From: a virus
Length of the DNA: 64,000 bases
IMG/VR virus record: IMGVR_UViG_3300017779_000001
Reading direction: 5' to 3' (one strand)
The position numbers were made by a program, and so were the translations under genes. This document shows, in pieces, positions 20,157 through 63,838 of the stretch. The notes beneath the pieces were generated by a model. It made no database searches. It saw only the letters and a list, made by a program, of their open reading frames with translations, and was not told the origin of the DNA. How positions within the stretch are numbered: the stretch's first letter is position 1; each line of letters begins with the position of its first letter.

Positions 20157-20345
20157 TTATCTCCTGTTTTGTCTTTGCTTCATCTTTTCGTTTTCGTCTT
20201 TAAGATGTTGTACTAAGAGACTCGTATAGATATCTCTTTCCCATGGTAACATATTTTCCAATTCTGATAATGAATACTTATGATGTTGCATTAATTGAAA
20301 GTTTGTTTGATAGTATGTGTTTATACTGTCATGAGAAAGAGCCAC
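20157..20345 (-). CDS. gp51: Baseplate hub assembly protein (gp51-type)
   Basis: YYQTNFQLMQHHKYSLSELENMLPWERDIY motif. Confidence 0.8.
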   Translation of the reverse strand: MALSHDSINTYYQTNFQLMQHHKYSLSELENMLPWERDIYTSLLVQHLKDENEKMKQRQNRR

Positions 20346-21055: not shown

Positions 21056-21080
21056 AATATAGTTCTCCTATTATATAATA

Positions 21081-22489: not shown

Positions 22490-22494
22490 AATAC

Positions 22495-22502
22495 TATTTA
22501 TG
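22495..22502 (-). promoter_or_regulatory. Late promoter (CATAAATA) for gp2, leaderless spacing
   Basis: Minus strand reads CATAAATA-GTATT-ATG(22489). Confidence 0.6.
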
Positions 22503-22935: not shown

Positions 22936-22963
22936 AAATAGATGTATAGTTAAGGTATTTATA
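22933..22963. promoter_or_regulatory. Face-to-face late promoters for divergent gp4 and gp48
   Basis: CATAAATA on + (22933-22940) and TATAAATA on - (22963-22956). Confidence 0.65.
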
Positions 22964-22964
22964 T

Positions 22965-46639: not shown

Positions 46640-48880
46640 ATGTCAAATGAAACATATATTAATACAGGGACTAGTTTTCAACAACCCTTCAATGATAGAA
46701 GACCTGTACAACAAAGTTACCAATATAACAATCAAGAAAATAGACAGAGACCTGTACAACAAAATTATCAGTACAACAACGTAGAGAATAGACAGAGACC
46801 TGCTAGACAATCGTATCAATACAATAACGTAGAGAACAGACAAAGACCAGCTAGACAGTCATATCAATACAATAACGTAGAGAGCAGACAGAGACCAACA
46901 AGACAGTCTTATCAGTACCATAATAGAGTACAACAAAATACTCAACAAGATTACACTTATCATAATAGGACACAACAACCTAATCAGCAGAACTATACCT
47001 ATCATAATAGAGTAGATAGACAACGTCCTGTACAACAAAATTATCAGTATCATAATAGAGTAAATAGACAAAGACCTGCTCGACAACCTTACACTTATCA
47101 CAACCGTGTTCAACAAGATACTCAGCAAACTTATCAGTATCATAATAGGATTCCAACCACTACTCAACAAGAATACACTTATCACAATCGTGTTCAACAA
47201 AATACTCAACAAACGTATGTGTACCATAATAGAATACAAGAAAGCACTCAGCAAAATTATCAGTACAACAACGTAGAGTCAAAACAAAGACCTGTTAGGA
47301 ATCAAGCACACCAAAATTACATTCATTACATGCAAGTTTATGGGGGTTCAGGAGATACAGCTGCTATTAAGATGGAAACACCATATGGTCAGGTAACTAA
47401 TACGATACCATCTTTTGAGTTCATGGGGTTTCCAATGCAAGAACAACGTACCGTAAGTGGAAGTCAATATACGTTCCAAGCAAGACAAGCATCGGGTAAT
47501 GCACATGAAGGAGACTCATTTAGGGGTGCAATGTTCTTCAGAGGGCCACAGTATAGCTTACAAGGAACTCAGTCACCATACTATGAAGGTGCGGGGCCAC
47601 AGGGAAATCATACAAATTATACACAGTGGGAGATGCAAGGATTTTCTTTTGAGGGACAGTTCCAAAGACAATGGACAGGACGTTTAAGATACACAGGAAA
47701 GAATACTAAGTTTGCAGCTCACATGGAAGCTACTGATACTGTGCAAAACCAAACCGTCCCCAATCCTCAAAGACAAGGACATCCTCAGGGACAGGGGAAT
47801 CAAGGACTTGAATTTCTTTCTCAACATCCAAATAATTCTCAATATGGAATTACAATTACCAGTGGTCAGTATACAAGATTGGGGTGGGAACATGAGGGGT
47901 CATTTAATTCTCAGGTTCAATCACCAGTTAACCCCCGAAATATTCCTCAAACAGCGTTGAGAAATAAAGGAACCTTTGTAAGAGTGAGACCCCGTGGTTA
48001 TGCAAGACAAGAACAATTTACTACAGGTGTTGCTTTAGATTTTGCATCAGTAGCTGCACAAGGTCTTGATTATCAGGTACCTACTGCAAATCTTAATGAT
48101 AAACAACAACCTGCTCAACAAACTTATTCATACCATAATCAATTACCTAGAAGAAGACCCGTTAGAACTCAACGAAACGAAGATTCAGATAGACAAAGAC
48201 CAGTAAGAGTACAAACACTTTCATCTGAAACAAAACGTAGACCAACTACAGTACAACAATTACAACGTGTATCTAGACGAAGACCAGTTAGAAATCAAGT
48301 CAATCAGGCTAATGAACAACAAAGAAATATACAACAAACATATCAGTATAATAATATTGTAACTAAACAACGTCCTGTACAACAAACTTATCCATATAAT
48401 AATGTTGAGACTAGACAAAGACCTGTTAGAAATCAAGTTAATGAAGATGTGACTAGACAAAGACCTGCTAGGGTTGCAGTATTACAAAGAGTTTCTAGAC
48501 AAAAGAATTTGCAACAAACATATTCTTATCACAATCAGGTTCCTAGAAGAAAATCTGTACAACAGACTTATAGTTATCATAACAGAGTAACAAGACAAAA
48601 GAATTTACAACAGACTTATAGTTATCATAATCAGGTTCCAAGACGTAGACCAGTACAACAGACTTATAATTATCATAATCAGGTTCCAAGACGTAGACCA
48701 GTGAGACAACCATTCCCTTCAACAAGACCTATAGGGCCTCTTGCAAAGGTTAAACAAATTTGGATTAATGAAGGTGGAGTGTTAAGAAAAATGGATGAAG
48801 TGTACTTAAATGATAGTGGAACATTGAAAAAGACTCATCAAAGTGTACCAACTTCTCAATTAACAGACCCGAACACTTAA
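46640..48880 (+). CDS. Mirror-repeat (hairpin) fibre-tip protein, short paralogue
   Basis: 13 N-arm and 13 C-arm Q/R/Y-rich 14/16-aa units flank a ~273-aa domain homologous to that in 56074-60222; GAGGT SD. Confidence 0.8.
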   Translation: MSNETYINTGTSFQQPFNDRRPVQQSYQYNNQENRQRPVQQNYQYNNVENRQRPARQSYQYNNVENRQRPARQSYQYNNVESRQRPTRQSYQYHNRVQQNTQQDYTYHNRTQQPNQQNYTYHNRVDRQRPVQQNYQYHNRVNRQRPARQPYTYHNRVQQDTQQTYQYHNRIPTTTQQEYTYHNRVQQNTQQTYVYHNRIQESTQQNYQYNNVESKQRPVRNQAHQNYIHYMQVYGGSGDTAAIKMETPYGQVTNTIPSFEFMGFPMQEQRTVSGSQYTFQARQASGNAHEGDSFRGAMFFRGPQYSLQGTQSPYYEGAGPQGNHTNYTQWEMQGFSFEGQFQRQWTGRLRYTGKNTKFAAHMEATDTVQNQTVPNPQRQGHPQGQGNQGLEFLSQHPNNSQYGITITSGQYTRLGWEHEGSFNSQVQSPVNPRNIPQTALRNKGTFVRVRPRGYARQEQFTTGVALDFASVAAQGLDYQVPTANLNDKQQPAQQTYSYHNQLPRRRPVRTQRNEDSDRQRPVRVQTLSSETKRRPTTVQQLQRVSRRRPVRNQVNQANEQQRNIQQTYQYNNIVTKQRPVQQTYPYNNVETRQRPVRNQVNEDVTRQRPARVAVLQRVSRQKNLQQTYSYHNQVPRRKSVQQTYSYHNRVTRQKNLQQTYSYHNQVPRRRPVQQTYNYHNQVPRRRPVRQPFPSTRPIGPLAKVKQIWINEGGVLRKMDEVYLNDSGTLKKTHQSVPTSQLTDPNT
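46709..47296 (+). repeat. N-arm: 13 degenerate 42/48-nt units (196 aa)
   Basis: QQxYxY(H/N)N... units counted in the translation. Confidence 0.9.
48116..48703 (+). repeat. C-arm: 13 degenerate 42/48-nt units (196 aa)
   Basis: Same total length as the N-arm; unit types complementary in reverse order. Confidence 0.9.
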
Positions 48881-48898: not shown

Positions 48899-49231
48899 AT
48901 GGCAATCATAGCAAACATATTTATAGACCAAGGTACCGATTTCGAAGTTACTATCGATGTCTCTGATACCAGTGACAATATCATAGACTTATCAGGGTAC
49001 ACTGCCTCTGCACAAATAAGAAAAACATATGGTTCTGAAACCATTGCAGAAACTTTTGGTACATCCATAACTGCATCAACTGGTAAGGTAACACTTACTC
49101 TTACGGATACTCAAACCACTGGTTTGAAAAGTGGTAGATATGTTTATGATTTAGTAATAACAGATGCCTCAGGAACAAAGACTAGAGTCATTGAGGGACA
49201 AGCAATAATAACACCCGGCGTAACAAGGTAG
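48899..49231 (+). CDS. Virion structural adaptor (BppU-N-like Ig fold)
   Basis: IDQGTDF...DL.GYT..AQIRK.Y...G.V.L.LT..QT..L..GRYVYD...RVIEG...TPGVT. Confidence 0.75.
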   Translation: MAIIANIFIDQGTDFEVTIDVSDTSDNIIDLSGYTASAQIRKTYGSETIAETFGTSITASTGKVTLTLTDTQTTGLKSGRYVYDLVITDASGTKTRVIEGQAIITPGVTR

Positions 49232-49241
49232 GGTTTATAAA

Positions 49242-49493
49242 ATGGCTATAAAAGCAAAGATATCAGGGAACGCAAGTAACGTGACATTAAAATCAAGACT
49301 ATTACAATCAACAGGCATTAAAGCAAAGCAAGTTGCAATCGGAGACTCTTCTACTGGAGGAGGTAGTAGTGTAAATTCGATAAGTGATATCGCAGACGTG
49401 AATGCAACAGAAACCGATAAAGGTTTACTAAACTATAATGCTGAAACAGATAGATGGGAAACCACTACAGTTATTGATGGTGGAACATTCTAG
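49242..49493 (+). CDS. Small fibre adaptor ending in IDGGTF
   Basis: I.D..DV...G.L.YN....W fibre motif; C-terminal DGGTF. Confidence 0.7.
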   Translation: MAIKAKISGNASNVTLKSRLLQSTGIKAKQVAIGDSSTGGGSSVNSISDIADVNATETDKGLLNYNAETDRWETTTVIDGGTF

Positions 49494-49496
49494 TAT

Positions 49497-49504
49497 TATA
49501 AATA
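49497..49504 (+). promoter_or_regulatory. Late promoter TATAAATA followed by a structured ~130-nt leader
   Basis: Exact consensus; hairpins GTGTC/GACAC, CCAC/GTGG, AATTCTA/TAGAATT downstream. Confidence 0.75.
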
Positions 49505-49642
49505 CTTACACAAATCAAGGTGTCAGACAGTGAGACACGACCCACATTGTGAGTGGACTGCAATATAATGATAATCTAATTCTATACAAATAGAATTTAC
49601 GTAAATTTTAAAACAATATATTAATTTTTTCAGGAGAAAAAA

Positions 49643-51244
49643 ATGGCAACAGTAATTCAAATTAAAAGGTCTACTGGTAGTGCTAATCCCGCAATTTCTG
49701 ATTTAGCAGAAAGTGAATTAGCCTACGTTCAGGATAGGTCAGGAACTGGTGCGAACGCAACTCTCTTCATAGAATCACATGACGGTACAAGTGCAGTTAT
49801 TCACGAAATCGGTGGTAAGTACTATACAGACATGTTGGCTGGTTCAACACCAACACCTTCAGACTTCATAGTAGGTAACGGTGCAACAGCTGGTGCATCT
49901 ATTAAGTTGAGAGAAGATTCAGACAACGGAACAAATTTCGTTGCTCTAAAATCACCCGACACATTGGGTTCAAACCTCACATTAACATTACCATCTTCAG
50001 ATGGTTCAAACGGACAAGTACTTGGAACCGATGGTTCAGGAGCATTGTCTTTCGTATCAACAACTTCATCAATCGCAGGTGCATCTGATACAGATATTTC
50101 AGCACCAGCATCAGGACACATTCTTGTCCATGACGGTTCAGACTCATTTGATAACGTAGCAGTTTCAGGTGACGTAACACTTGCATCTAATGGTGCAATG
50201 ACAATCGGTTCAGGTGTAGTTGAAAATGGCATGATAGCTGCAGACGCAGTAACAGGTGCTAAAATCGCAGACGACGCTATTGATTCAGAACATCTTGCAG
50301 ATGGTTCAATCGATACAGCTCACATTGCAAATGGACAAGTAACATTTGGTAAACTTGCAGCTGCAGCGGTTGTAATCGAATCAGAAGGTATCGGTTCAAA
50401 CGATAACGACACAACAATTCCTACTTCAGCGGCAGTAAAAAACTATGTTGATACTAACGTAACAGCACAAGATGTAGACTTTGCTGGTGATTCAGGAACA
50501 GGTGCAGTCGATTTAGATTCACAATCACTTACAATTCAAGGTACAAATAACGAAATTGAAACAAGTGCAAGTGGACAAACTTTAACAGTTGGTCTACCTA
50601 ACGATGTAACTATTTCAAATAACTTAACAGTTTCAGGAAACTTAATATCAGACGATATTACAACTGCAACATTAACAACTTCAGGTAACCTTACAGTAAC
50701 AGGTAACTTAAGTGTTAACGGTACAACAACAACTGTTAATTCAACAACAGTATCAATTGCAGACCCAATTTTTGAAATTGGTGATGATAGTTCAGATGAT
50801 AATCTAGACAGAGGTATCAAATTTAAGTACAACTCAGGTGGTACTAAACTTGGGTTCTTTGGTATGGACGATACAGATGCTAAATTTAAGTTTATTGCAG
50901 ATGCAACAGACACAAGTTCAGTATTCTCAGGTTCACTAGGTAACGTTGCATTCGGTAATGCCGAAGTAGCAGCTTTATCATTAAGTGGTTCTATCTCATC
51001 ATACGCAGGGTCAGCTCCAACAGACGGTCAAATCTTAATTGGTGACACTTCAGGTGGAGTATTCGATGCAGCTACATTGACAGCTGGTGAAGCAATAACT
51101 ATTACTAATGGTGCTGGTGCAATTACACTAGCTGCTGAAGACGCAACTACATCTAATAAAGGTGTTGCATCTTTCTCAAGTAATAACTTCACTGTTTCAA
51201 GTGGTGCTGTAACCGTTACTGCAATTGACGGTGGTACATTTTAA
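49643..51244 (+). CDS. Tail fibre segment protein
   Basis: MATVIQIKRS...P...L...ELA N-terminus; LP..DG..GQVL.TDG.G.L; VT..KIA repeats; G.L.V.GTTTTVNST; ends IDGGTF. Confidence 0.8.
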   Translation: MATVIQIKRSTGSANPAISDLAESELAYVQDRSGTGANATLFIESHDGTSAVIHEIGGKYYTDMLAGSTPTPSDFIVGNGATAGASIKLREDSDNGTNFVALKSPDTLGSNLTLTLPSSDGSNGQVLGTDGSGALSFVSTTSSIAGASDTDISAPASGHILVHDGSDSFDNVAVSGDVTLASNGAMTIGSGVVENGMIAADAVTGAKIADDAIDSEHLADGSIDTAHIANGQVTFGKLAAAAVVIESEGIGSNDNDTTIPTSAAVKNYVDTNVTAQDVDFAGDSGTGAVDLDSQSLTIQGTNNEIETSASGQTLTVGLPNDVTISNNLTVSGNLISDDITTATLTTSGNLTVTGNLSVNGTTTTVNSTTVSIADPIFEIGDDSSDDNLDRGIKFKYNSGGTKLGFFGMDDTDAKFKFIADATDTSSVFSGSLGNVAFGNAEVAALSLSGSISSYAGSAPTDGQILIGDTSGGVFDAATLTAGEAITITNGAGAITLAAEDATTSNKGVASFSSNNFTVSSGAVTVTAIDGGTF

Positions 51245-51269
51245 TTAGTAGTTATAACTTGGAGGAAGC

Positions 51270-52094
51270 ATGGCAACAGTAATTCAGTTTAAACGTTCAG
51301 CTACTCAGAACGCTGTTCCTAATACTGGTGATTTATCACTAGGGGAATTAGCTGTAAACACTTATCACGGTAGGTTTTACACTGAGAAGAATGACGGTTC
51401 TGCATCTGTAGTCGAATTAGGTTCAAACCCAACGAGTTTGACACTCAATGATGCTTACTCTTTTCCAACCAGTGATGGTTCGGCAAACCAAGTACTTAAA
51501 ACCGATGGAAGTGGTACATTAACATTTGCTAACGCAGGTAATGTGTATTCCACGTTCACATATAGTGTAACAGGAAACCAAACAGTATTTACTGGAAATG
51601 ATGACAATGGTAATTCATTATCATATACATCAGGTGGTGAAAACGTATACTTAAACGGTGTTAAGTTGATTGGGGGTGGTACAGATTATACAACTACTAA
51701 CTCAACCACTATCACTTTAACAGAAAACGCAGTAAGTGGAGATACATTAGTAATTAATAATATCTCTAACACTAGTGATTTAGTTGAAGGTAACCATACA
51801 GAATCATCGTTCACTGCAACGACAGCTGACCAACTTTTACAGTCAGTTTCAACATCAATTAAGAGTATAAGATTTTTTGTGACAGCAACACACGCTTCAG
51901 CAGGAACTCACTCTTGTGATGTTATCATTGCAAATGATGGTACTAATGCATATTATTCACAGTTTGGTGATGTCCATACTGGTAACTCTTTGTTTACATT
52001 GAGTGTAGATGTTAATTCAGGAAATATGAGATTACTCGTAACTCCTGCTAACACTAATACCACAATAGACACGTTCCAAATTAGACATTCATAA
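51270..52094 (+). CDS. Tail fibre connector protein
   Basis: MATVIQFKRS...GELAVN N-terminus; QT.F.G.D.N domain; C-terminal domain shared with 52108 and 52619. Confidence 0.75.
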   Translation: MATVIQFKRSATQNAVPNTGDLSLGELAVNTYHGRFYTEKNDGSASVVELGSNPTSLTLNDAYSFPTSDGSANQVLKTDGSGTLTFANAGNVYSTFTYSVTGNQTVFTGNDDNGNSLSYTSGGENVYLNGVKLIGGGTDYTTTNSTTITLTENAVSGDTLVINNISNTSDLVEGNHTESSFTATTADQLLQSVSTSIKSIRFFVTATHASAGTHSCDVIIANDGTNAYYSQFGDVHTGNSLFTLSVDVNSGNMRLLVTPANTNTTIDTFQIRHS

Positions 52095-52107
52095 GGAGGA
52101 TTAGAAC

Positions 52108-52518
52108 ATGGCAAAATCAAATGCATTTAAATTAGCTGAACTAATCCGTGGGATTCAATTCGATGTTGACAATGATAAAATTGTTACAGCGAAAAAAGTT
52201 GAAACCAAAAATACTAAGAGAGAGTCATCTACGACAACATCGACAGATGCATTCTCATTAGATACCTTTGCAAAAGCAACCTACAGGGCTGCAAGATATA
52301 TTGTAGTAATGTCTAAAGGTACGGATTACCATTCTACAGAAGTTATGTTAGTACATGATGGTACTACAGTTACTTTAACTCAGTACGGTACATTGAAGTC
52401 AACACCGTTAGCTACATTTGACGCAGATATTTCGGGAGATGACGTAAGATTACGTGTGACCCCAGCATCAAATGCTAGTACAACGTTCAAATTTGACAGA
52501 ACAGTAGTAGACGCGTAA
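52108..52518 (+). CDS. Virion structural protein (shared beta-sandwich domain)
   Basis: DTF....YRAARY.V...YH.TE..VHDG...TQYG...F.AD...VRLRVTP. Confidence 0.75.
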   Translation: MAKSNAFKLAELIRGIQFDVDNDKIVTAKKVETKNTKRESSTTTSTDAFSLDTFAKATYRAARYIVVMSKGTDYHSTEVMLVHDGTTVTLTQYGTLKSTPLATFDADISGDDVRLRVTPASNASTTFKFDRTVVDA

Positions 52519-52536
52519 CAGTTCAGAGAACTAATT

Positions 52537-52565
52537 AAGGGGGAACTTAGGTTCCCCTTTTTTTT
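52537..52565 (+). terminator. Rho-independent terminator
   Basis: GGGGAAC-TTAG-GTTCCCC followed by T8. Confidence 0.9.
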
Positions 52566-52579
52566 GCCCTTACAAAATG

Positions 52580-52587
52580 CATAAATA
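52580..52587 (+). promoter_or_regulatory. Late promoter (CATAAATA) restarting transcription after the terminator
   Basis: One mismatch to TATAAATA, directly after the terminator. Confidence 0.65.
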
Positions 52588-52618
52588 GTATTAGATTCAA
52601 CATTATGGATTATATTAA

Positions 52619-53365
52619 ATGGGAATAAAGAAGAAATTTTTAGCAGACTACGGTGAAGAAATACATGGTGACTTAGATGTTACTGGAGATGTTTCTGTGT
52701 CAGGTGGTTTGACAATATTAGGAACAACGACTACTATAGATTCGGTTACCAAATCGGTTGATACATCTATGTTTGAACTTGCTAATGCAAATACATCCCA
52801 AGACTTGATTGACTTTGGTATATACGGTAACTATAATGACGGTCTATCAGATGGAGGTGCAAGTGAGTTTTCAGGTTTGTTTAGAGATGCAACTGATTCC
52901 ACATGGAAATTATTTGATGGACTAGAAATAGAACCGACAACAACAGTAGACACTGAAGGAACTGGATGGTCTTTTGCAGACCTAAAGGTAGGTGATTTAG
53001 AATCGACAGGAACATTAACTGCAGTAGGGCCACTCAACTTACAGAATTTAAGAATGGATGCAAACAATACATTGACTACTACTGCAACAGATGAGGTAGA
53101 ACTAGATAGTTTTCCATTGTTATCATATAGAAGTGGAAAATATCATGTACAAGCTTCACAAGGAACAAATTTTCATGCATGTGAAATTATGGTAATACAT
53201 GATTCATCAAGTGCATCACACCAAGTGTATGGAAGTGTAACCACAAATGGAGAGTTGTTTACAACATCAGTAGATACAAATTCAGGAGATGTCAGAGTCA
53301 AAGTTACACCATCATCATCGAGTTCAACAGTATTCAAAATAAGTAGAAATTTATTAACAGTATGA
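52619..53365 (+). CDS. Tail fibre connector protein
   Basis: F.ADYG N-terminus; G.L.V.G.TTT.DS; GLFRDA.D..WKLF; C-terminal YRSGKY...HD...VYG...VRVKVTP domain. Confidence 0.75.
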   Translation: MGIKKKFLADYGEEIHGDLDVTGDVSVSGGLTILGTTTTIDSVTKSVDTSMFELANANTSQDLIDFGIYGNYNDGLSDGGASEFSGLFRDATDSTWKLFDGLEIEPTTTVDTEGTGWSFADLKVGDLESTGTLTAVGPLNLQNLRMDANNTLTTTATDEVELDSFPLLSYRSGKYHVQASQGTNFHACEIMVIHDSSSASHQVYGSVTTNGELFTTSVDTNSGDVRVKVTPSSSSSTVFKISRNLLTV

Positions 53366-53420
53366 TAACCTTTAGGGGATTGGTTCTCCTAAATACATTC
53401 ATACAAACAGGGGATTTTTA

Positions 53421-53756
53421 ATGGCAACAGCAAACTTTACAATCGATTATGGTTTGACAGTTGGTTCATCTGAAGTAATCACATCTAGTGGTAAAGTAGT
53501 GGCAGCTGCAGTATCAACTTTGACAACTGATAATTTAACACAGGGGTCGACAAATCTGTATTTTACAGGTTCACAGTTTAATACATCTTTTGCTTCTAAA
53601 GACACAGACGATTTATCAGAAGGGTCATCAAACCTTTACTTCACAGATACTAGAGCGAGAGGTTCTATATCTTTAGCATCAGGTGAAACCAATTTATCTT
53701 ATAACAGCACAAGTGGTGAACTATCATTACCAACAGTTGATGGAGGTACATTCTAA
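53421..53756 (+). CDS. Small fibre adaptor (FTIDYGL...DGGTF)
   Basis: Two TD.L..GS.NLYFT repeats; C-terminal VDGGTF. Confidence 0.72.
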   Translation: MATANFTIDYGLTVGSSEVITSSGKVVAAAVSTLTTDNLTQGSTNLYFTGSQFNTSFASKDTDDLSEGSSNLYFTDTRARGSISLASGETNLSYNSTSGELSLPTVDGGTF

Positions 53757-56059
53757 TGGCAGGTGAAAAGAATTTTAACGTCAAGAATGGTCTATCGGTT
53801 GCTGGAACAGAAGTCATTCAAACAGATGGAACTTATGTAGGTTCCATTTCTGCAACTGCACTTAACGAAAGTGTAGACGATAGAGTTGCAAACCTCTTAC
53901 AAGCAGGAGCTGGTATTGGATTATCATACGATGATGCAAATAACCAATTAACAATCACAGGTAATGTTGGTGATATCACTGGTGTTAACGCAGGTGCTGG
54001 TTTAACAGGTACTGCAACTTCAGGTGATGCAACATTAAACATTGGTGCTGGTACAGGTATTACTGTAAATGCAGATGACATTGCAATCAACTTTAAAGAC
54101 GAAGACAACATGTCTTCAAACAGTGCAATACACGCTGCAACACAACAATCAATTAAAGCATATGTAGATTCCCAAGTATCAAGTAAAGACAACACAGACG
54201 AAATTACAGAAGGAAGTTCAAACCTCTACTATACAAATGAAAGAGTAGATGACAGAGTAAGTTCATTACTTACCGAAGGAAGTGGTATATCATTAACATA
54301 TGATGATACAGCTAACACACTTACAGTTGCAAATACAAACTCTGCAGATATTACAGCAGTAACAGCAGGAAATGGTTTGACTGGTGGTGGAACTTCAGGT
54401 GCAGTGTCACTTGCAGTTCAAGTTGATGACAGTTCATTAGAACTTGCATCAGATACAGTTCAAGTAAAAGCAGGTGGTATCACTAATGATATGTTAGCAG
54501 GTTCTATTGTAAATGGAAAACTTGCAAACAATTCAATATCAGTTAACTCAACTTCCGTATCCCTTGGTGGTTCTGTTACTTTAGACACTGGTGATATTTC
54601 AGAAAATGGAAATCTATACCATACATCAGAAAGAGTTGACGATAGAGTCAATGCATTAATTACTGCTGGTACCAATATAACAACATCATATGATGATGCA
54701 GCTGGTACACTTACAATTAACTCTTCAGGTAAAACACAAGAACAAATAGAAGACATCGTAAATGGTTTAGTAGTTGGTGGAACAAACATCACTTCTACAT
54801 ACGATGATACAAATGGTACACTTACACTTGCTGGTTTATCAAATGGAGATATCAGAGGTTTATTATCTGCAACTGGAGATTTATCATACAACAGTACTAC
54901 AGGTGCATTCTCATTCACAGAAAGAACAAATGCAGAAGTAAGAGGTTTATTCTCAGCAGGTGGTGACTTAGCATACAACAGCACAACAGGTGCATTTAGT
55001 GTAACAAAATTCACAACTGCAAATGCAAGAAGTTCAATTTCAGCAGGTGGTGATTTAGCATACAATTCAAGTACTGGTGTTATCTCATACAGTGAACCTA
55101 CAATGTATGCAGACTCAGATGCAAGAGGAGCTATATCAGTAACAGACTCAGGTGGAGACGGTTCACTTGCATATAATTCTTCTACTGGTGTTATCACATA
55201 CACAGGCCCAAGTGCATCAGAAGTTCGAGCTCATCTAAGTGCTGGAACTGGTGTTGGATTCTCAGGTGGTGCATTTAGTATCGGTCAGGCAGTCGCAACA
55301 AACAGTAATGTAACATTTGCAGATGTAAATGCAAGTGGTGATTTAGTAGTCACAGGTGACTTAACAGTTAATGGGTCAACAGTTACCAACAGTGCATCAA
55401 ATACAACAATCGAAGATGCATTGATTGAACTTGGTTCAGGTAACACAGGTTCAAACTCTAATGACTTAGGTCTTATCCTCGAAAGAGGTTCAACTGGTGA
55501 TAATGTATTCATGGGTTGGGACGAAAGTTCAGATAGAGTTAGATTTGCAACTACAACAGCAACAGGTTCATCCAGTGGTGCATTAACACTTACTAATGCA
55601 AACATACAAGCAGGAAGACTTTACGGTGCTGTTACAGGTAACGTAACTGGTAATGCAGACACAGCTTCTGCATGGGCAGATGCAAGAACTATCTCTTTAG
55701 GTGGTGACCTTACAGGTTCCGTATCTATAGATGGTAGTGCAAACGCAACACTTAATGCAACAGTTGGTTCAAATGCAGTTGCATTAGGTTCAAACACAAC
55801 AGGAAATTACGTATCAGGAATATCAGGAACCTCAAATGAGATTACAATCTCAGGTTCAGGTAGTGAAAATGCAACAGTAACAATAGGTCTACCCGATGAT
55901 GTAACTATCGGTGATGCATTATCAGTTACTGGTAAAGGTACTACAGATTTTACAACAATCGGTAGTTCAGACGGAGCATTTAGAAATACTTTCATACATT
56001 CAGCAGGCCCATCAGGAAGTGATGGACAAGTCGGTGATGTATGGATAACTTACTCATAA
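53756..56059 (+). CDS. Fibre protein 2
   Basis: KNFNVKNGLSV N-terminus; ERVDDRV..L..G..I...YDD and GDL.YNS.TG repeats; ends GPSGSDGQVGDVWITYS. Confidence 0.8.
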   Translation: MAGEKNFNVKNGLSVAGTEVIQTDGTYVGSISATALNESVDDRVANLLQAGAGIGLSYDDANNQLTITGNVGDITGVNAGAGLTGTATSGDATLNIGAGTGITVNADDIAINFKDEDNMSSNSAIHAATQQSIKAYVDSQVSSKDNTDEITEGSSNLYYTNERVDDRVSSLLTEGSGISLTYDDTANTLTVANTNSADITAVTAGNGLTGGGTSGAVSLAVQVDDSSLELASDTVQVKAGGITNDMLAGSIVNGKLANNSISVNSTSVSLGGSVTLDTGDISENGNLYHTSERVDDRVNALITAGTNITTSYDDAAGTLTINSSGKTQEQIEDIVNGLVVGGTNITSTYDDTNGTLTLAGLSNGDIRGLLSATGDLSYNSTTGAFSFTERTNAEVRGLFSAGGDLAYNSTTGAFSVTKFTTANARSSISAGGDLAYNSSTGVISYSEPTMYADSDARGAISVTDSGGDGSLAYNSSTGVITYTGPSASEVRAHLSAGTGVGFSGGAFSIGQAVATNSNVTFADVNASGDLVVTGDLTVNGSTVTNSASNTTIEDALIELGSGNTGSNSNDLGLILERGSTGDNVFMGWDESSDRVRFATTTATGSSSGALTLTNANIQAGRLYGAVTGNVTGNADTASAWADARTISLGGDLTGSVSIDGSANATLNATVGSNAVALGSNTTGNYVSGISGTSNEITISGSGSENATVTIGLPDDVTIGDALSVTGKGTTDFTTIGSSDGAFRNTFIHSAGPSGSDGQVGDVWITYS

Positions 56060-56073: not shown

Positions 56074-59000
56074 ATGGCGCAACGAATAAAGAACCCTACG
56101 GGGTGGGTAAACACAACAGGAAGCTGGGTAAAAACATCTCCAACTGAATGGTCGGCAGTAGATTCTATCTATTCAAAGACACCTACTGGGTGGGTAAAGT
56201 CATCAGGACAAATGCCAGCTCAAGTAGTTGCAACAAGACCAGCAGTTGGGACAAGACCTTACAACTTCCAACAATCTTATCAATTCACTGTGCAACAGTC
56301 GTATCAGTATCATAATAGGGTACAGGCATCTACACAACAGTCATATCAGTATCATAACAGGGTTCAAACAAGTGTTCAACAAGATTACACTTATCACAAC
56401 CGTGTTCAACAAAATACTCAACAGACATATACCTATCATAATAGAGTACAAAGAAGAAGACCAGTACAACAAGCATATACCTATCATAATAGAGTACCTA
56501 GACGTAGACCAGTACAACAGACTTATAGTTATCACAATCAGGTACCAAGACGTAGACCAGTACAACAGACGTACGTCTATCATAATCAGGTACCAAGACG
56601 TAGACCTACACAACAATCATATCAATACCATAATAGAGTTGGTAGACAACGTGTAGTACAACAGGGTTATACTTATCACAATAGAGGACAAGCTTCTACC
56701 CAACAGACTTACCAGTATCATAACAGAGTTCAAACAAGTACTCAACAACCTTACACTTATCATAATAGGGTACCTAGAAGAAGACCTGTACAACAGTCGT
56801 ATCAGTACCATAATAGAGTACAAAGAAGAAGACCTGTTCAACAGACGTATACCTATCATCATAGAATACCAAGACGTAGACCAGTACAACAGGCATACAC
56901 TTATCACAATAGGATACAAACAAGTACTCAACAGGCATACACTTATCACAATAGGGTACCTAGAAGAAGACCAGTCCAACAGGCATACCAGTACCACAAT
57001 AGGGTGCAGAGAAGAAGACCTGTTCAACAGTCGTATCAGTACCATAATAGAGTACCTAGAAGAAGACCAGTACAACAAGGGTATACTTATCATAATAGAG
57101 GACAAGCATCAACTCAACAGACTTATCAATATCATAACAGAGTTCAAGCTTCTACTCAACAGAGTTACCAGTATCATAATAGGGTTCAGACTAGTGTACA
57201 ACAATCATACCAATACCATAATAGAGTACAGGTAAGTACACAACAGAATTACCAGTACAACAATACTGAATCAAGAAGAAGACCTGTACAACAAAGTTAC
57301 CAGTACAACAATCAAGAGTCTAGAAGAAGACCAGTACAACAGGTATACCAGTATCATAATCAGGTACCTAGAAGAAGACCTGTACAACAGACGTATACCT
57401 ATCATAATCAGGTACCAAGACGTAGACCTGTACAACAAAGTTACCAGTACAATAATCAAGAGACAAGACGTAGACCAGCACAACAGTCTTATACGTATCA
57501 TAATAGACTTCAAGCTAGGTATAGTTACCAACAACCTTATAGTTATCACAATCAGGTACCAAGACGTAGACCTGTGCAACAAGCATACACTTATCATAAT
57601 CAGGTTCCAAGACGTAGACCAGTTCAACAGTCTTATCAGTACAATAATCAAGAGTCAAGACGTAGACCAGTTCAACAGTCTTATCAGTACAATAATCAAG
57701 AGCCAAGACGTAGACCAACACAACAGTCTTATCAGTTTAACCAACCTACACCTAGAAGAAGACCTGTACAACAAACATACCAGTTTAACCAACCTACATC
57801 TAGGACAAGACAGACTACAGTAAGGAATAGCGCACACACAGCTTACATCCATTATGGAAATATCTATGGTGGTGGTGGTGATACATCTGTTATTAAGGTA
57901 GAAACTCCATACGGACAAAGAACTTCCTATATACCATCTTTTGAGTTCTCGGGTTTCCCAATGAATGCTCAGAATACAGGTACTGCAAGTCCATTTGGTT
58001 TTGCAGGAAGACCTGATGGAAAAGGACATGAAAGAGATTCCTTTAGAGGAAACATGATGTTCAGAGGGCCTTCGTTACAAATGTCAGGTACGCAATCACC
58101 ATTCTTTACTGGTAGTGGCCCACAAAACCAATCAACATCACCGAAGAGTTGGCACTATAGAAGTTACTTTGGTGGACAAAGACAGTGGCAGGGTGTGTTA
58201 AGATTTGTTGGTGCGAACATGGAATTTGGTGCTGATTTCGTTGCAGGGCCAGCTGCTCAATCTGTTCAAAGTATACCTAACCCACAGAGACAAGGTTCAA
58301 TACCTATTACAGGACAAGCACCAACTAATTCTCAATATGGTGCAAAAATAACGAGTGGACAGACTGCAACATTTAAATGGTCACAAGATGGTCAGATGCA
58401 GTCACAATCACCCGGCGGTGGAGGTGGAGGATTCCCACTATTTGTCAGAAACAAAGGTGATGTATTCGTTAGAAGTAGAGATTTGTCTCATGTTCACCAA
58501 GTAACTTTCAGTAATAGTGCTGGTGTGACATGGCCTCAAGGTCAGATGAACGAGATGCAACAGCCTGGTCAACAGAACCAACCGTACACTTATCATAATA
58601 GGGTACAAAGACGTAGACCAACACAACAACCGTACACTTATCATAATAGGGTACCTAGAAGAAGACCAGTACAACAGGCATACACTTATCATAATCAGGT
58701 ACCTAGAAGAAGACCTGTGCAACAAGCGTACACTTATCATAATCAGGTACCAAGACGTAGACCTGTACAACAAAGTTACCAGTACAACAATCAAGAGTCT
58801 AGAAGAAGACCAGTACAACAAAGTTACCAGTACAATAATACTGAGACTAGGAGAAGACCTGCTAGGTCAGACTATCGAGTCAACCAACCTACTCCTAGAA
58901 GAAGACCAGTACAACAGACGTATACCTATCATAATAGAATACCGAGACGTAGACCAGTGCAACAATCTTATCAGTACAATAATACTGAGACTAGAAGAAG

Positions 59001-60222
59001 ACCAGTGCAATCGTCTTATCAGTACAATAATACTGAATCTAGAAGAAGACCAGTTCAACAGACGTATACTTATCATAATAGAATACCAAGACGTAGACCT
59101 GTACAACAAAGTTATCAGTATCATAATCAGGTACCTAGAAGAAGACCAACTAGAGTACAAACATTACAGAGGGTGTCAAGACAGAGACCAGCAAGAGTAC
59201 AAGCTTTACAACGTGTATCAAGACGTAGACCAACAAGAGTACAACAGTTGCAACGTGTCTCTAGACAAAGACCAGCAAGAGTACAGGTTAACATTCAAGA
59301 AACAAGAAGAAGACCTGTACAACAAAGTTACCAGTACAATAATATTGTAACTAGACAACGTCCTGTACAACAAGGTTATCAATATAATAATATTGAGTCT
59401 AGAAGAAGACCAGTGCAACAGGGTTATCAATATAATAATACTGAGACTAGAAGAAGACCAACTAGAGTACAGGTGAACCAACCTTCTCCTAGAAGAAGAC
59501 CTGTTCAACAGAGTTATCAGTATAATAGTACTGAGAACAGACAGAGACCAGTACAACAAGGTTATCAGTATAATAATATTGAGACTAGACAACGTCCTGT
59601 ACAACAAGGTTACCAGTATAATAATGTTGAGACTAGAAGAAGACCAGCAAGAGTACAACAGTTGCAACGTGTTTCTAGACAAAGACCTGCTAGAGTTCAG
59701 GTAAATATACAAGAAACTAGAAGAAGACCAGCACAGCAAACTTATCAGTACAATAATATTGTAACTAGACAACGTCCAACACAACAGAATTATCAATATA
59801 ATAATACTGAAAATAGACAGAGACCAGTGCAACAAGGTTACCAGTATAATAATACTGAAAACAGACAAAGACCAGTGCAACAGGGTTATCAATATAATAA
59901 TATTGAGTCTAGAAGAAGACCAGTGCAACAGGGTTATCAATATAATAATATTGAGTCTAGACAAAGACCAGCAAGAGTTCAGGTTCTACAGAATGTAACT
60001 AGACAAAGACCTGCTAGAACACAGGTATTGCAGAGAGTTTCAAGACAGAGACCTACTAGGGTACAGGTATTGCAAAGAGTTTCAAGACAGAGACCAGCAC
60101 AGTCATCCCGTCAGAAGGTTACAGTTGGTATACAACCATATGCATATCAACAACCGTATAGAAATACAGTTCAGAAATGGGATGGTACAACGTCTTGGCC
60201 TGCACAACCAATATCCTCTTAA
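56074..60222 (+). CDS. Mirror-repeat (hairpin) fibre-tip protein, long paralogue
   Basis: Trp-rich N-terminus; 33 N-arm and 33 C-arm units flank a ~250-aa domain homologous to that of 46640-48880. Confidence 0.8.
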   Translation: MAQRIKNPTGWVNTTGSWVKTSPTEWSAVDSIYSKTPTGWVKSSGQMPAQVVATRPAVGTRPYNFQQSYQFTVQQSYQYHNRVQASTQQSYQYHNRVQTSVQQDYTYHNRVQQNTQQTYTYHNRVQRRRPVQQAYTYHNRVPRRRPVQQTYSYHNQVPRRRPVQQTYVYHNQVPRRRPTQQSYQYHNRVGRQRVVQQGYTYHNRGQASTQQTYQYHNRVQTSTQQPYTYHNRVPRRRPVQQSYQYHNRVQRRRPVQQTYTYHHRIPRRRPVQQAYTYHNRIQTSTQQAYTYHNRVPRRRPVQQAYQYHNRVQRRRPVQQSYQYHNRVPRRRPVQQGYTYHNRGQASTQQTYQYHNRVQASTQQSYQYHNRVQTSVQQSYQYHNRVQVSTQQNYQYNNTESRRRPVQQSYQYNNQESRRRPVQQVYQYHNQVPRRRPVQQTYTYHNQVPRRRPVQQSYQYNNQETRRRPAQQSYTYHNRLQARYSYQQPYSYHNQVPRRRPVQQAYTYHNQVPRRRPVQQSYQYNNQESRRRPVQQSYQYNNQEPRRRPTQQSYQFNQPTPRRRPVQQTYQFNQPTSRTRQTTVRNSAHTAYIHYGNIYGGGGDTSVIKVETPYGQRTSYIPSFEFSGFPMNAQNTGTASPFGFAGRPDGKGHERDSFRGNMMFRGPSLQMSGTQSPFFTGSGPQNQSTSPKSWHYRSYFGGQRQWQGVLRFVGANMEFGADFVAGPAAQSVQSIPNPQRQGSIPITGQAPTNSQYGAKITSGQTATFKWSQDGQMQSQSPGGGGGGFPLFVRNKGDVFVRSRDLSHVHQVTFSNSAGVTWPQGQMNEMQQPGQQNQPYTYHNRVQRRRPTQQPYTYHNRVPRRRPVQQAYTYHNQVPRRRPVQQAYTYHNQVPRRRPVQQSYQYNNQESRRRPVQQSYQYNNTETRRRPARSDYRVNQPTPRRRPVQQTYTYHNRIPRRRPVQQSYQYNNTETRRRPVQSSYQYNNTESRRRPVQQTYTYHNRIPRRRPVQQSYQYHNQVPRRRPTRVQTLQRVSRQRPARVQALQRVSRRRPTRVQQLQRVSRQRPARVQVNIQETRRRPVQQSYQYNNIVTRQRPVQQGYQYNNIESRRRPVQQGYQYNNTETRRRPTRVQVNQPSPRRRPVQQSYQYNSTENRQRPVQQGYQYNNIETRQRPVQQGYQYNNVETRRRPARVQQLQRVSRQRPARVQVNIQETRRRPAQQTYQYNNIVTRQRPTQQNYQYNNTENRQRPVQQGYQYNNTENRQRPVQQGYQYNNIESRRRPVQQGYQYNNIESRQRPARVQVLQNVTRQRPARTQVLQRVSRQRPTRVQVLQRVSRQRPAQSSRQKVTVGIQPYAYQQPYRNTVQKWDGTTSWPAQPISS
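56293..57822 (+). repeat. N-arm: 33 degenerate 42/48-nt units (510 aa)
   Basis: 10 14-mers, 22 16-mers and one 18-mer counted in the translation. Confidence 0.9.
58576..60099 (+). repeat. C-arm: 33 degenerate 42/48-nt units (508 aa)
   Basis: 10 14-mers and 23 16-mers, in mirror order to the N-arm. Confidence 0.9.
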
Positions 60223-60278: not shown

Positions 60279-61733
60279 ATGAAGTATATTGATTTACCCG
60301 ACCCAGTGAGTGTGAAAAGTTCTTTCAACGACCATCTTGGTGGATTGAATAAAACAAAACCCAAGAAAGAAGTGATGATTAAAATCAAAGAAAAGTTTGA
60401 TGAAATCTCACGTATATACAAACCTAAAATAGTTTCACTTGGTGACTTGCACAAAAAGTATGGTGTAAGTTACCAAGAAGACTCCTCACATAAAATTAGG
60501 GATTTCTTTCGTGCATTACAAGTTGGAGAAGCAGCTGTTGATGCAGAAGACTTTGAAAGAATAAATGGTGATGAGAACTCTTCTCGTCTCTATCATGCAA
60601 CTAAATTACATTTCTTAATTCAAGATATCCGAGACAAAGGAATTGAATACGGCCCTCAAGGTGTATTGTATTGGCCTCCTACTGCAGATGCAGATGAGAT
60701 TAGATACTTTGTACATCCCGGCACTGGAAGATATTCTGCAATCAAATATTTACAAAAATGGGATACTGAGTGTTTGGTATGGGATGCATATGACGTATGT
60801 TATGACCATAAACCAATGTCTTACTCTGAATGGATAGTTCACACTTTTAAAAATAATCTATATCCCGATATGAATCATGTGTCTTATTGTTGGAATCAAG
60901 GTATCATAGAAGCACACCAAAATAGAGACATGAGAGGTGACTATACTGAAGCAAATGACTACTTACATTATACACTATTCAATGGTGAGATACCAACTAT
61001 ATACGTTGGATATGATGGTAGACATGGTGAAGTTTCAGATGTTTGTATAAAGAGTATACAACATTCTATTGAAAGATACAATAACAAAATGGGAGACTTA
61101 TCAAGTGTTCCGTGGAATGCATTCGTTAATATTAAAAAACTTGACGTTTCAAAGATTCCCGAGTATACTAGAGAGTATGCAAACCAATCAACAGAGTTTA
61201 CGTATAGTAGATTCATGATACCATACTTAGAGAAATATCAAGGTGTCAGTATGTTTGTGGATGATGACTTTATCTTCACAGAAGATATGTTACACTTATT
61301 TTATTCACTAGGACATACTGATTCCGTTGCATGTTTCCATCATGACTTTTCTGATAAAGGTATTACAGAAAAATTAGGTGGAGAAAAGAATGTATGGTAT
61401 CCTAAAAAACTATGGTCAAGTCTTATGATATTTAACAACGGTCATAAGGATTGTAGAAAACTAACACCCGAGGTGGTAAACACACAATCGGGTCAATATC
61501 TACATCAATTTAAATGGACAGATAATGTAGTCAAACTTCAAGACGATTGTTGTTGGACTGAAGGTTACTCTGATGAACCATATAACGTAAAGAAACATAG
61601 AATGATTCATTACACAAATGGGGGCCCATGGATTGAAAACTTCAATGATAGTGTTCAACAAATTGGTAGATATAATTATTATAAAAATCTCGTAGAGATT
61701 GACAACAAAAAGGTGAAAGAAAATGGCAAATAG
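60279..61733 (+). CDS. Glycosyltransferase (GT-A, GT8-like) fused to an uncharacterised N-terminal domain
   Basis: C-half IYVGYD.R, STEFTYSRF..PYL, FVDDDF (DxD), YP.K.WSS.M.FN, HYT.GGPW. Confidence 0.8.
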   Translation: MKYIDLPDPVSVKSSFNDHLGGLNKTKPKKEVMIKIKEKFDEISRIYKPKIVSLGDLHKKYGVSYQEDSSHKIRDFFRALQVGEAAVDAEDFERINGDENSSRLYHATKLHFLIQDIRDKGIEYGPQGVLYWPPTADADEIRYFVHPGTGRYSAIKYLQKWDTECLVWDAYDVCYDHKPMSYSEWIVHTFKNNLYPDMNHVSYCWNQGIIEAHQNRDMRGDYTEANDYLHYTLFNGEIPTIYVGYDGRHGEVSDVCIKSIQHSIERYNNKMGDLSSVPWNAFVNIKKLDVSKIPEYTREYANQSTEFTYSRFMIPYLEKYQGVSMFVDDDFIFTEDMLHLFYSLGHTDSVACFHHDFSDKGITEKLGGEKNVWYPKKLWSSLMIFNNGHKDCRKLTPEVVNTQSGQYLHQFKWTDNVVKLQDDCCWTEGYSDEPYNVKKHRMIHYTNGGPWIENFNDSVQQIGRYNYYKNLVEIDNKKVKENGK

Positions 61734-62289
61734 AGCTTTAATATATGATGCAACTAATACGTTAGTTATTATCAAAGAAACAGGGTTAAGAATTGTTTAT
61801 CAAAATGTAGACAAACCCGAATTAGGTTTCGAATACGAAGGACTCGTATACGACCAAGATGAATTCAAAATCTTAGAAGTAAATCCATCTAATTGGGATG
61901 CATCGGAAAAACTTCCGTTAACTGATTCAGACAGAGATAAGATTGAAAAATTTATCGATGATGCAGAAGCACCCGATGGTACAAACCTAAACAACCAATA
62001 CATCGATGATTTGTATGATGTTGTTTCAAAAAATGTATATCAATTATGTGTTGAAATGAGAATTGAAAATCTATATGAAGCTACATACATTGGTAGAGAA
62101 GATTCAAATCATCCTTTTAGGTCAGATGCACGAAGAGTGTTAGAATTTGCAGATAGTTCTTACAGTGTACTAGAACAAGTTTGTAGTTCTCTAAGTAGAA
62201 CCCGAGAAGACCAACTTAAAGACTTTGAAGATTATTGTGATGACTTGTTGCAGTTACCACCTGTACAACAATTCCAAGGTCAGCAGTAA
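61723..62289 (+). CDS. Hypothetical protein, possibly tail-fibre-assembly chaperone-like
   Basis: A.Y......PFR.DA......D..Y pattern weakly recalls DUF4376/Tfa; ORF itself is solid, function weak. Confidence 0.5.
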   Translation: MANRALIYDATNTLVIIKETGLRIVYQNVDKPELGFEYEGLVYDQDEFKILEVNPSNWDASEKLPLTDSDRDKIEKFIDDAEAPDGTNLNNQYIDDLYDVVSKNVYQLCVEMRIENLYEATYIGREDSNHPFRSDARRVLEFADSSYSVLEQVCSSLSRTREDQLKDFEDYCDDLLQLPPVQQFQGQQ

Positions 62290-62292
62290 TGT

Positions 62293-62982
62293 ATGGAAGT
62301 TGTATATCTAGATAAACCCTTTAAGATACAGAAATTCCCCTTAGATAAAATCTATGTCTTAGACGATTGGGTAACATACGAAATCATGTATAACATGAGG
62401 AGACTAACCTCAAGAACTATATGGGCTCAAAACAATCAGGTAAATAGAAACGGTAAGATACGTCATCTGTTTTGGGGTGCAACATTCTATGAGGGCAAAG
62501 ATAAAAAAATTAGAGACCATACTTATCATATGCAAGACACCTATCTTATCAGATATCTAGATTGGAAACTTCAATCAGAGTTTGGTTTTAGATGGGAAAA
62601 ATTTCAGTATGCTGGTATGAATGGTCAGACCACTGGTCTTCAAGGGACTATACACGAAGATAGTTCTCCTGAAAATACAACTAATATATCTTTCTTATGG
62701 TACAACACTGAGTATTGGGAAAAAGAATGGGGTGGCCCACTTAAATTTTATAACGAAGAAGCAAAACATATAGATGGTTATAAAGAAGAGTATTTAAAAC
62801 ATCAGATTGCACAGGTTGATTATAAACCAAATAGATTACTAATGTTTGATGGGAGTATACCACACAATGCAGATGCTCCAAATGATGCATGTGAATATGC
62901 ATGTAGACAGTCTCTAGTTATACGAGGTGATGCATGTCGACTAGAGAATGAATTAGATTATTATGCCAACGATAGAATTTAA
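62293..62982 (+). CDS. 2OG-Fe(II) oxygenase
   Basis: HED (HxD), W..EWGG.L.F, PNRL..FDG.IPH, RQS (RxS). Confidence 0.85.
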   Translation: MEVVYLDKPFKIQKFPLDKIYVLDDWVTYEIMYNMRRLTSRTIWAQNNQVNRNGKIRHLFWGATFYEGKDKKIRDHTYHMQDTYLIRYLDWKLQSEFGFRWEKFQYAGMNGQTTGLQGTIHEDSSPENTTNISFLWYNTEYWEKEWGGPLKFYNEEAKHIDGYKEEYLKHQIAQVDYKPNRLLMFDGSIPHNADAPNDACEYACRQSLVIRGDACRLENELDYYANDRI

Positions 62983-63838
62983 CACAACAAACGAAAAAGC
63001 ATTTAAAGAATATCGTCCTGTAGTTGCAAAACATATACATCCTAATTGGTGGAAAGAGATGAGTGTTTCAGCTAATGGACGAGACAATATTAAGATGTGT
63101 CCTTCAATGTTAGATGTGTTGGGTAGTGGTTACTACATTACATGTGTTGAAGATATTAAAATAGAATACCCTAAAAATGATTTAGATGGTTCACCCAAAT
63201 ATGAACTGGGACAATTTGCAAAGTGTCCACACAATCCTAATTATGAAACTACTGGTCACCCTAGAGAACAATTCCCTAACTTCGAGTATGCAAAGGCAGA
63301 TGTAGAAGAAAATCTAGAAAAAAATAATGCAGTCAAAATTAGAGTTCCATGGAGTGTAACAACACCATTGGGTTATTCTTGTTTATATCTAGACCCATTT
63401 CTATTTCAAAATAGATTCTTTCAGACTTGGCAGGGGGTTATGGACACCGATAAATATACAGGTGGAGACTTAAATGGTTTAATTATTCTGTATCCTAAGA
63501 CAAGAGAAGAGTTTGTTATTCCAGCAGGAACACCTATAGCACAGATAGTTCCATATAGAAGAGAGTCGTGGAAAGCTAGTATCGATTTGATTAGTACCGA
63601 ACAATATCAAAAAGACCATGATGCATTTCTATATCATAAGTTTGCAACAGATGATTCAACACCCTTTAAGAAAGGTGGTGGAATAGAAAAGAAATGGGTT
63701 CCAAAATCACCACTCTTTGAAAAGGATATTTTTGACCCATTCAATATTATTCCGACTGAAGAAGAACTTGAACAAGAAAGAAAAATATCAAAAGAAGTTA
63801 GGAATGCAAAATCTCTAAGAGAGAAAATTGAGGATTAA
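62963..63838 (+). CDS. Conserved phage protein (DUF6065-like)
   Basis: IK.CP...D....GY, PW...TP.GYS.L...PF, G..DTD.Y, IPAGTP.AQ..P..RE.W. Confidence 0.65.
   Translation: MPTIEFNTTNEKAFKEYRPVVAKHIHPNWWKEMSVSANGRDNIKMCPSMLDVLGSGYYITCVEDIKIEYPKNDLDGSPKYELGQFAKCPHNPNYETTGHPREQFPNFEYAKADVEENLEKNNAVKIRVPWSVTTPLGYSCLYLDPFLFQNRFFQTWQGVMDTDKYTGGDLNGLIILYPKTREEFVIPAGTPIAQIVPYRRESWKASIDLISTEQYQKDHDAFLYHKFATDDSTPFKKGGGIEKKWVPKSPLFEKDIFDPFNIIPTEEELEQERKISKEVRNAKSLREKIED

What the first reader, a model, noticed from the sequence alone, without database searches (positions are those of the whole stretch)
56074..60222. A 'protein palindrome': 33 N-arm repeat units pair one-to-one, in reverse order, with 33 C-arm units under a strict code
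SEEN: Define H16 = QQxYxYHNxxxRRRPV, N16 = His-free 16-mer (mostly YNN), H14 = QQxYxYHNRxQxST and X14 = Tyr/His-free RVQxLQRVSRQRPA type. The N-arm, read outside to inside, is H14x3, H16x5, H14x2, H16x3, H14, H16x3, H14x4, N16x2, H16x2, N16, H16*, H16x2, then four His-free units. The C-arm read backwards is X14x3, N16x5, X14x2, N16x3, X14, N16x3, X14x4, H16x2, N16x2, H16, variant*, N16x2, H16x4. All 33 pairs match: H14 with X14 and H16 with N16. Lengths agree (only the innermost unit is 18 vs 16), and exactly one unit per pair carries His. Rare variants co-vary. The only YHH unit faces the only YNS unit. Both YHNRGQ units face the two RVQVNIQET units. The odd YHNRLQARYSY unit faces the odd RSDYRVNQPT unit. 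KNOWN: in the T4 gp37 needle each chain runs out and back as an antiparallel hairpin, with His-bound iron and a head domain at the turn. INFERENCE: this protein folds into a very long antiparallel beta-hairpin needle (about 510 residues per arm, roughly 170 nm if fully extended at ~3.3 A/residue). A receptor-binding domain would sit at the turn, and the register would be set by a base-pair-like unit code. I do not recognise this as a described family.
Basis: partly seen in the sequence, partly recalled or inferred. Interest (0 to 1): 0.96.

Follow-up and report, generated by a model that had tools for sequence, protein, structure and literature searches.

The report
Mirror-coded fold-back phage fibre
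A tail-region protein of an uncultured marine T4-like phage has two 500-residue repeat arms that match unit for unit when one is read backwards, and relatives keep the match by changing both arms together, so the chain very probably folds back into one very long beta-hairpin fibre whose register is set by a peptide pairing code.

Summary
Observation confirmed. In ORF 56074-60222 (1382 aa) the repeat classes of the two arms mirror each other: 32/32 scored pairs (exact chance 1 in 4.8e12), plus the innermost pair by eye. There is no DNA inverted repeat. A paralogue at 46640-48880 mirrors 13/13 in another order. Among relatives, 12 unit-class changes all hit both arms; none hit one arm alone. A third rule (unit starting with Arg faces a unit lacking the penultimate Pro, 12/12) fixes the register, and a low-confidence AlphaFold model's strand ends fit it. 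Six assemblies lack whole units in one arm; three testable ones sit on 29-41-nt repeats (collapse or real mutants, unresolved). The YHH/YNS pair is not conserved. The arms have no His-x-His iron motif and no similarity to T4 gp37, so trimer and metal are unproven. GenBank Phage C48C1 carries a 3347-aa protein with the same fold-back design in a different alphabet (1042-residue arm, five looped-out domains). The scan noted this design before in other phage genomes (unchecked notes). I found no paper, family or structure for it. Best reading: a very long, cationic, fold-back beta-ribbon adhesin docked on a fibre tip.

The parts
56074..56292 (+). Protein A N-terminal segment (residues 1-73), four Trp in short turn motifs; putative base/docking module
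   Evidence: sequence; no family hit; docking role is inference
56293..57822 (+). Protein A outgoing arm, 33 units of 14 or 16 aa (residues 74-583)
57823..58575 (+). Protein A central head domain at the turn (residues 584-834), beta-rich, no known family
   Evidence: 45% identical to paralogue head; no Pfam, PHROG, PDB or fold match; 8 relatives among 1.8 billion representatives
58576..60099 (+). Protein A returning arm, 33 units complementary to the outgoing arm in reverse order (residues 835-1342)
60100..60222 (+). Protein A C-terminal tail (1343-1382), would lie beside the N-terminal segment at the base
   Evidence: sequence; position at the base is inferred from the register
53756..56059 (+). 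767-aa fibre gene directly upstream of A, ending in a G-D-x-W motif; candidate carrier
   Evidence: phrog_697 E 8.7e-35; end motif kept in L001 and L021
46640..48880 (+). Paralogue B (746 aa): arms 46709-47296 and 48116-48703 (13 mirror pairs, different order), head 47297-48115, C-terminal beta-hairpin module 48704-48880
   Evidence: C-terminal module matches phrog_13729 E 4e-7 and weakly a gp38-adhesin cluster by structure, TM 0.52 over 52 residues
43863..46616 (+). 917-aa tail-fibre gene directly upstream of B, ending in a G-H-x-W motif; candidate carrier
   Evidence: PHROG tail fibre hits, best E 1.9e-31; end motif kept in L021

Best explanation
Protein A (and its paralogue B) is a virion appendage of a T4-like marine phage. 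The chain runs out as one extended beta strand of about 500 residues, turns through a ~250-aa head domain and runs back as an antiparallel partner strand, giving a ribbon of at most about 165 nm (B about 65 nm; 3.3 A per residue, upper bound). Register is set by unit complementarity: within a rung position i faces position 16-i (14-i in short units), so Tyr4/Tyr6 of one unit face Arg12/Arg14 of the other on one face (a Tyr-Arg ladder), no Arg faces Arg, Gln1 faces Pro15 or Arg1 faces Ser/Asn, and a 14-mer can only face a 14-mer. Both termini end up at the base, where a small Trp/beta-hairpin module docks on the tip of the fibre encoded just upstream, as gp38 adhesins do on gp37. The arms (net charge about +170) and the variable head reach out to and hold the host surface. 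Shown: mirror, compensation, register by covariation, genomic context. Inferred: beta structure, intrachain pairing, docking, host binding. Oligomeric state is open; I slightly favour a single-chain ribbon over a gp37-type trimer. The mirror is kept by selection on the protein while units are copied within and between arms.
For: 32/32 and 13/13 mirror with exact chance 1 in 4.8e12 and 1 in 3.6e4. Class changes between relatives: 7 (window A vs L001), 1 (B vs L004/L022) and 4 (P0015 N-arm with P0006 C-arm, heads 98% identical) all in both arms, 0 in one arm. Third rule: 12/12 Tyr-type units starting with Arg face a non-Pro penultimate residue, 172/175 starting with Gln face Pro (units are related, so the Fisher value 1.7e-16 is optimistic); it includes a new compensated change in L021. 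Top covariation signals sum to 16 or 14; pairing table; zero Arg-Arg pairs at this register. AlphaFold model of B162-550 gives strands 4-27, 31-57, 332-358, 362-385, whose ends all sum to 389, i.e. the same register. Locus lies between baseplate genes and gp13 among tail-fibre genes. Each mirror gene follows a fibre ending in G-D/H-x-W. Independent alphabet with same design in Phage C48C1. Single gp38 on trimeric gp37 via Trp residues is established (PMC6851490).
Against: The models are poor (mean pLDDT 35.5 and 41), the second used the same alignment that carries the covariation, and I could not inspect its contacts. Six assemblies have whole units missing from one arm. The family is tiny, so independent events number about a dozen. 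The two putative docking modules show no sequence similarity to each other and the gp38 link is a weak structural lead only. No virion, expression or binding data.
Confidence: 0.6

Rival explanations
1. Same fold-back pairing, but three chains assemble into a six-stranded gp37-like needle with the one His per rung meeting at the axis to bind a metal.
For: Exactly one His per rung in all matched proteins; His and the equivalent Asn of the partner lie on the face opposite the Tyr-Arg ladder; gp37 uses a six-stranded antiparallel needle with His-bound iron (PMC9659904, PMC6957217); most phage fibres are trimers (established knowledge).
Against: No His-x-His motif in any arm, so a trimer gives three His per level, not six; no similarity to gp37; the C48C1 N-arm has no His at all yet mirrors, so metal is not needed for the design; a trimer would pack about +500 charge.
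Confidence: 0.22
2. The arms pair in the same antiparallel register but between chains (N-arm of one chain with C-arm of a neighbour in a dimer or trimer), not within one chain.
For: Covariation cannot tell intrachain from interchain contacts; intertwined chains are common in phage fibres (established knowledge).
Against: Head termini fall in the same register as the arms without a break (residue sum 1415 from the base to the head), which is simplest for a hairpin; the single-chain model places the arms symmetrically.
Confidence: 0.1
3. The protein is not a fibre but a long polycation that binds nucleic acid or host polymers inside the cell or capsid.
For: 193 Arg against 22 acidic residues in the arms; Gln/Asn/Tyr/Arg-rich composition.
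Against: Both paralogues sit in the tail-fibre cluster directly behind fibre genes in every relative with flanks; the head varies (45-75% identity) while neighbours are about 90% identical, as expected of a host-facing domain.
Confidence: 0.05
4. The mirror is a by-product of DNA-level copying or of assembly and has no structural meaning.
For: Units are direct repeats with exact 53-62-nt matches between arms; whole rungs reappear with arms swapped in L001.
Against: No inverted repeats; partner units are different sequences, not copies; synonymous similarity is not mirrored (rho 0.11, permutation p 0.34; block test 42/64 and 48/66 against background 0.66); identical protein in independent assemblies.
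Confidence: 0.03

Closest known systems
Needle domain of phage T4 long tail fibre gp37 (PMC9659904, PMC6957217)
   Same: Chain runs out and back antiparallel, with a receptor-binding head at the turn; His along the stalk; tail-fibre gene context.
   Different: The whole gp37 tip is about 215-230 residues and not built of complementary repeats; here each arm alone is about 500 residues of 14/16-aa units in mirror order; no His-x-His; no sequence or fold match; trimer not shown.
T-even gp38 adhesins, e.g. phage S16 (PMC6851490)
   Same: Separate gene directly behind a fibre gene; small terminal module with Trp (A) or a beta-hairpin (B) that could dock on a fibre tip; variable distal domain.
   Different: S16 gp38 docks through three helices and has a short beta-helix and polyglycine sandwich; no PF05268 hit here; here the stalk is a 65-165 nm fold-back ribbon.
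Phage C48C1 CDS0201 (OQ984149.1, WJE88074.1), annotated hypothetical
   Same: Same locus position in the nearest GenBank phage (terminase 56%); mirror-complementary arms around a small apical domain; Tyr-Arg diagonal pairs.
   Different: Different alphabet (4-residue Arg-type and Gly-Asn-type units), no His in the N-arm, five domains looped out of the return arm, no sequence similarity; itself undescribed.
SMC/Rad50 fold-back coiled coils; thrombospondin-type Trp/Arg ladders (both from my own knowledge, not tested)
   Same: Very long fold-back arms of matched length; aromatic-arginine stacking along antiparallel strands.
   Different: SMC arms are alpha-helical and not a unit code; thrombospondin repeats are small disulfide-bonded domains, and these proteins have no Cys.

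Membership tests
T4 gp37 needle family | Chain folds back antiparallel with head at the turn | tested here: met
   By covariation and compensation, not by structure; model low confidence
T4 gp37 needle family | His-x-His motifs binding iron along the needle | tested here: not met
   None in the arms of six full-length proteins; one unconserved instance in the head of A
T4 gp37 needle family | Sequence similarity to gp37 or its PHROG/Pfam families | tested here: not met
   No hit in Pfam, PHROGs or PDB sequences
T4 gp37 needle family | Structural match to the needle | tested here: inconclusive
   Model pLDDT 41; no Foldseek hit at E 0.001, best Z 4.2
T4 gp37 needle family | Homotrimer, six-stranded barrel | not testable with these tools
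gp38 adhesin (PF05268) | Gene directly downstream of a fibre gene | tested here: met
   Both paralogues, in window and relatives
gp38 adhesin (PF05268) | PF05268 / polyglycine sandwich | tested here: not met
   No Pfam hit; only one short Gly run in the A head
gp38 adhesin (PF05268) | Terminal attachment module that caps the fibre tip | tested here: inconclusive
   B residues 692-744 align to a gp38-domain cluster at TM 0.52 over 52 residues of a poor model; binding not tested

The most novel reading that the evidence does not exclude
Marine T4-like phages have a class of adhesin fibres, present in at least two unrelated sequence alphabets, built as single giant beta-hairpins whose length and register are written in a modular peptide pairing code that evolves like an RNA helix, by compensatory change and swapping of whole rungs, and which can carry domains at the turn or looped out of one arm.
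Probability: 0.6. Interest if true: 0.9.

Novelty: categorically new. Interest (0 to 1): 0.82.

Why it matters
Long isolated beta ribbons are normally unstable and hard to register, and no described protein family sets the register of 500-residue arms through complementary repeat units. If right, this is a natural code for programmable-length, single-gene nanofilaments with a cargo domain at the tip, directly testable by single versus paired unit deletions. It would also add an unrecognised class of host-capture appendage for marine phages, now filed as hypothetical low-complexity proteins, and a clean protein example of RNA-like compensatory evolution. The role itself (host attachment fibre) is of a known kind; the architecture is what is new.

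Tried and rejected
Single-sequence AlphaFold of B: pLDDT 35.5, uninformative for the arms. Fold searches with the alignment-based model: nothing significant in PDB, BFVD or the wide PDB search; this absence is not evidence of a new fold. Head search in GenBank phages, GTDB genomes and long proteins of the 5.8-billion set: no match. Pfam Fibrinogen_BP hit is below its cut-off and compositional: rejected. DNA palindrome as the cause: rejected. A coordinated DNA duplication route: no synonymous-site support, though weak power. S-RIM2 structural protein, hit by the C48C1 query: no mirror signal, rejected as compositional. YHH/YNS as a code element: rejected. Homology of the two putative docking modules, and of the two downstream glycosyltransferase-like genes: not detectable. 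Literature searches found no description; the library lacks most subscription papers.
Full report
Setting. The window is most of a 72,301-base virus record. Baseplate, hub, tape-measure and tail-fibre PHROG hits and the gp13-gp14-gp15-terminase-sheath-tube-portal run in matching contigs make it a T4-like myovirus; relatives come from seawater metagenomes where the record says so. The nearest GenBank phage by terminase is Phage C48C1 (55.8%), then cyanophages at about 44%. The host is unknown.

The observation. On the 32 regular rungs the reversed C-arm is the exact complement of the N-arm in length and His content; shuffles average 12.2 and never exceed 24, exact chance is 1 in 4.8e12, parallel order gives 12 and the best shifted mirror 20. 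Keeping runs intact gives one full match in 500,000. The gene has no inverted repeat, so the mirror exists only in the protein, and partners are different sequences rather than copies. Two other assemblies encode the identical protein.

Independent tests. A paralogue B at 46640-48880 shares the head (45% identity) and mirrors 13/13 in another order. The family is small: 8 representatives among 1.8 billion, a few viral and metagenome contigs, none in GTDB or GenBank phages. Full-length matched relatives all mirror perfectly: L001 A and L021/L002 A 32/32, L004 B and L022 B 13/13. In L001, seven inner rungs changed class, each in both arms, including His units moving from one arm to the other and 14-mers appearing on both sides; B relatives add one such change, and the N-arm of P0015 with the C-arm of P0006 (heads 98% identical) add four. 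No class change touches one arm only. This is the protein counterpart of compensatory base changes and is the strongest evidence for physical pairing.

Exceptions. Six assemblies lack whole units in one arm: L030 A (3 units), L022 A (4), L018 B (1), L017 B (2), L016 B (5), L019 B (2). The three with a near-identical full-length partner are deleted between exact repeats of 29, 37 and 41 nt, and two assemblies of one phage (L018/L021 and L022) lose units at different places, which is what assembly collapse produces. The YHH/YNS pair is not conserved.

The code and the register. Covariation between partner units peaks at position sums of 16 in long units and 14 in short ones. A third rule follows: a unit starting with Arg faces one whose penultimate residue is not Pro (12/12 among Tyr-type units), while 172/175 starting with Gln face Pro; L021 shows a fresh compensated instance. 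At this register Tyr4 faces Arg12, Tyr4 and Tyr6 lie diagonal to Arg14 and Arg12, Asn8 faces Asn8 and no Arg faces Arg. Even positions form a nearly invariant Tyr/Arg face; His7 lies on the other face. An AlphaFold model of B162-550 from an 11-row alignment is low confidence (pLDDT 41) but calls both arms as strands, 4-27 and 31-57 against 332-358 and 362-385, whose ends all sum to 389; that is residue sum 711 in B, the covariation register. It is supporting, not independent, evidence.

How the mirror is kept. Exact 53- and 62-nt matches link the two arms, and in L001 rungs 24 and 30 are closest to rungs 14 and 21 with arms swapped; 15 of 32 rungs have both nearest neighbours on one common rung against about 3 expected. 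Synonymous similarity, however, is not mirrored (rho 0.11, p 0.34). The simplest reading is unit-wise copying between direct repeats filtered by selection for complementary partners; a special coordinated recombination route is not required and not supported.

A second alphabet. In the same locus of Phage C48C1 lies a 3347-aa hypothetical protein. Residues 856-1295 pair with 1808-1369 at a constant sum of 2664 (mutual information z 6.5; Gly-Arg, Tyr-Tyr, Phe-Arg pairs). A pairing matrix learned on 870-1190 alone aligns the held-out region 262-849 to the reversed C-terminal part with score 238, against 43 forward and at most 174 for block shuffles. In total 1042 N-arm residues pair without a gap, with five domains of 127-315 residues looped out of the return arm. 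It shares no sequence with protein A and its N-arm has no His. Earlier notes of this scan report the same design in several other phage genomes; I did not check those and do not count them as support.

Mechanism. Most likely each protein is a fold-back beta ribbon, up to about 165 nm for A and 65 nm for B, with the head at the far end and both termini at the base. A single gp38 caps trimeric gp37 in phage S16 (PMC6851490). I therefore favour an adhesin docked on a fibre tip, with a strongly cationic stalk (net about +170) and a variable head engaging the host surface. Docking, oligomeric state, metal and host binding are inferred, not shown.

Comparison and verdict. It works like the gp37 needle (six-stranded antiparallel, His-x-His iron sites; PMC9659904, PMC6957217, PMC11705849) but is not a member: no His-x-His, no sequence match, repeats with a mirror code, arms several times longer. 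No Pfam, PHROG, PDB or fold match explains head or arms and no paper was found. The feature is real and strongly constrained; the architecture appears undescribed, while its job is probably the familiar one of host attachment. Interest 0.82.

Noticed in passing
L036:25012-35055 (Phage C48C1, OQ984149.1 CDS0201): 3347-aa hypothetical protein with a mirror-complementary 1042-residue arm, a 73-aa apical domain and five domains looped out of the return arm; a named, fully sequenced phage on which the design could be imaged.
   Followed up: yes
L036, CDS0201 residues about 2060-2130: A stretch at the end of the first looped-out domain appears twice in tandem; may be a real duplication or an assembly error in the record.
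   Followed up: no
window 60279-63838 and L026:12120-12872: Directly behind A: a 484-aa gene whose C-terminal half looks glycosyltransferase-like (Asp-rich motif; phrog_28018, no Pfam hit), a 188-aa unknown and 2OG-Fe(II) oxygenase genes (PF13640, PF13759). C48C1 has a glycosyltransferase-like gene (weak PF00535) near its mirror gene. They could modify the fibre; not shown.
   Followed up: partly
window 48899-56059: Cluster of small fibre-associated genes with shared terminal motifs (three end in the same five residues, two start alike; LtfC-like adaptor at 48899), conserved in order in all relatives.
   Followed up: no
L030:429-4433, L022:10013-13672, L018:10001-12235, L017, L016, L019: Whole-unit deletions in one arm only; collapse or real mutants unresolved.
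   Followed up: partly
window A head versus L001, L021, P0001; B heads: Heads diverge (about 75% among A orthologues, insertions up to 23 aa among B heads) while neighbouring genes are about 90% identical, as expected for a host-facing domain.
   Followed up: partly
window about 17400-23000: A block of minus-strand genes with inverted GC skew, including a 781-aa ORF (17416-19761) with no PHROG hit.
   Followed up: no
L011: Several genes split relative to the window (fibre and DUF4815 genes), suggesting indel errors in that assembly.
   Followed up: no
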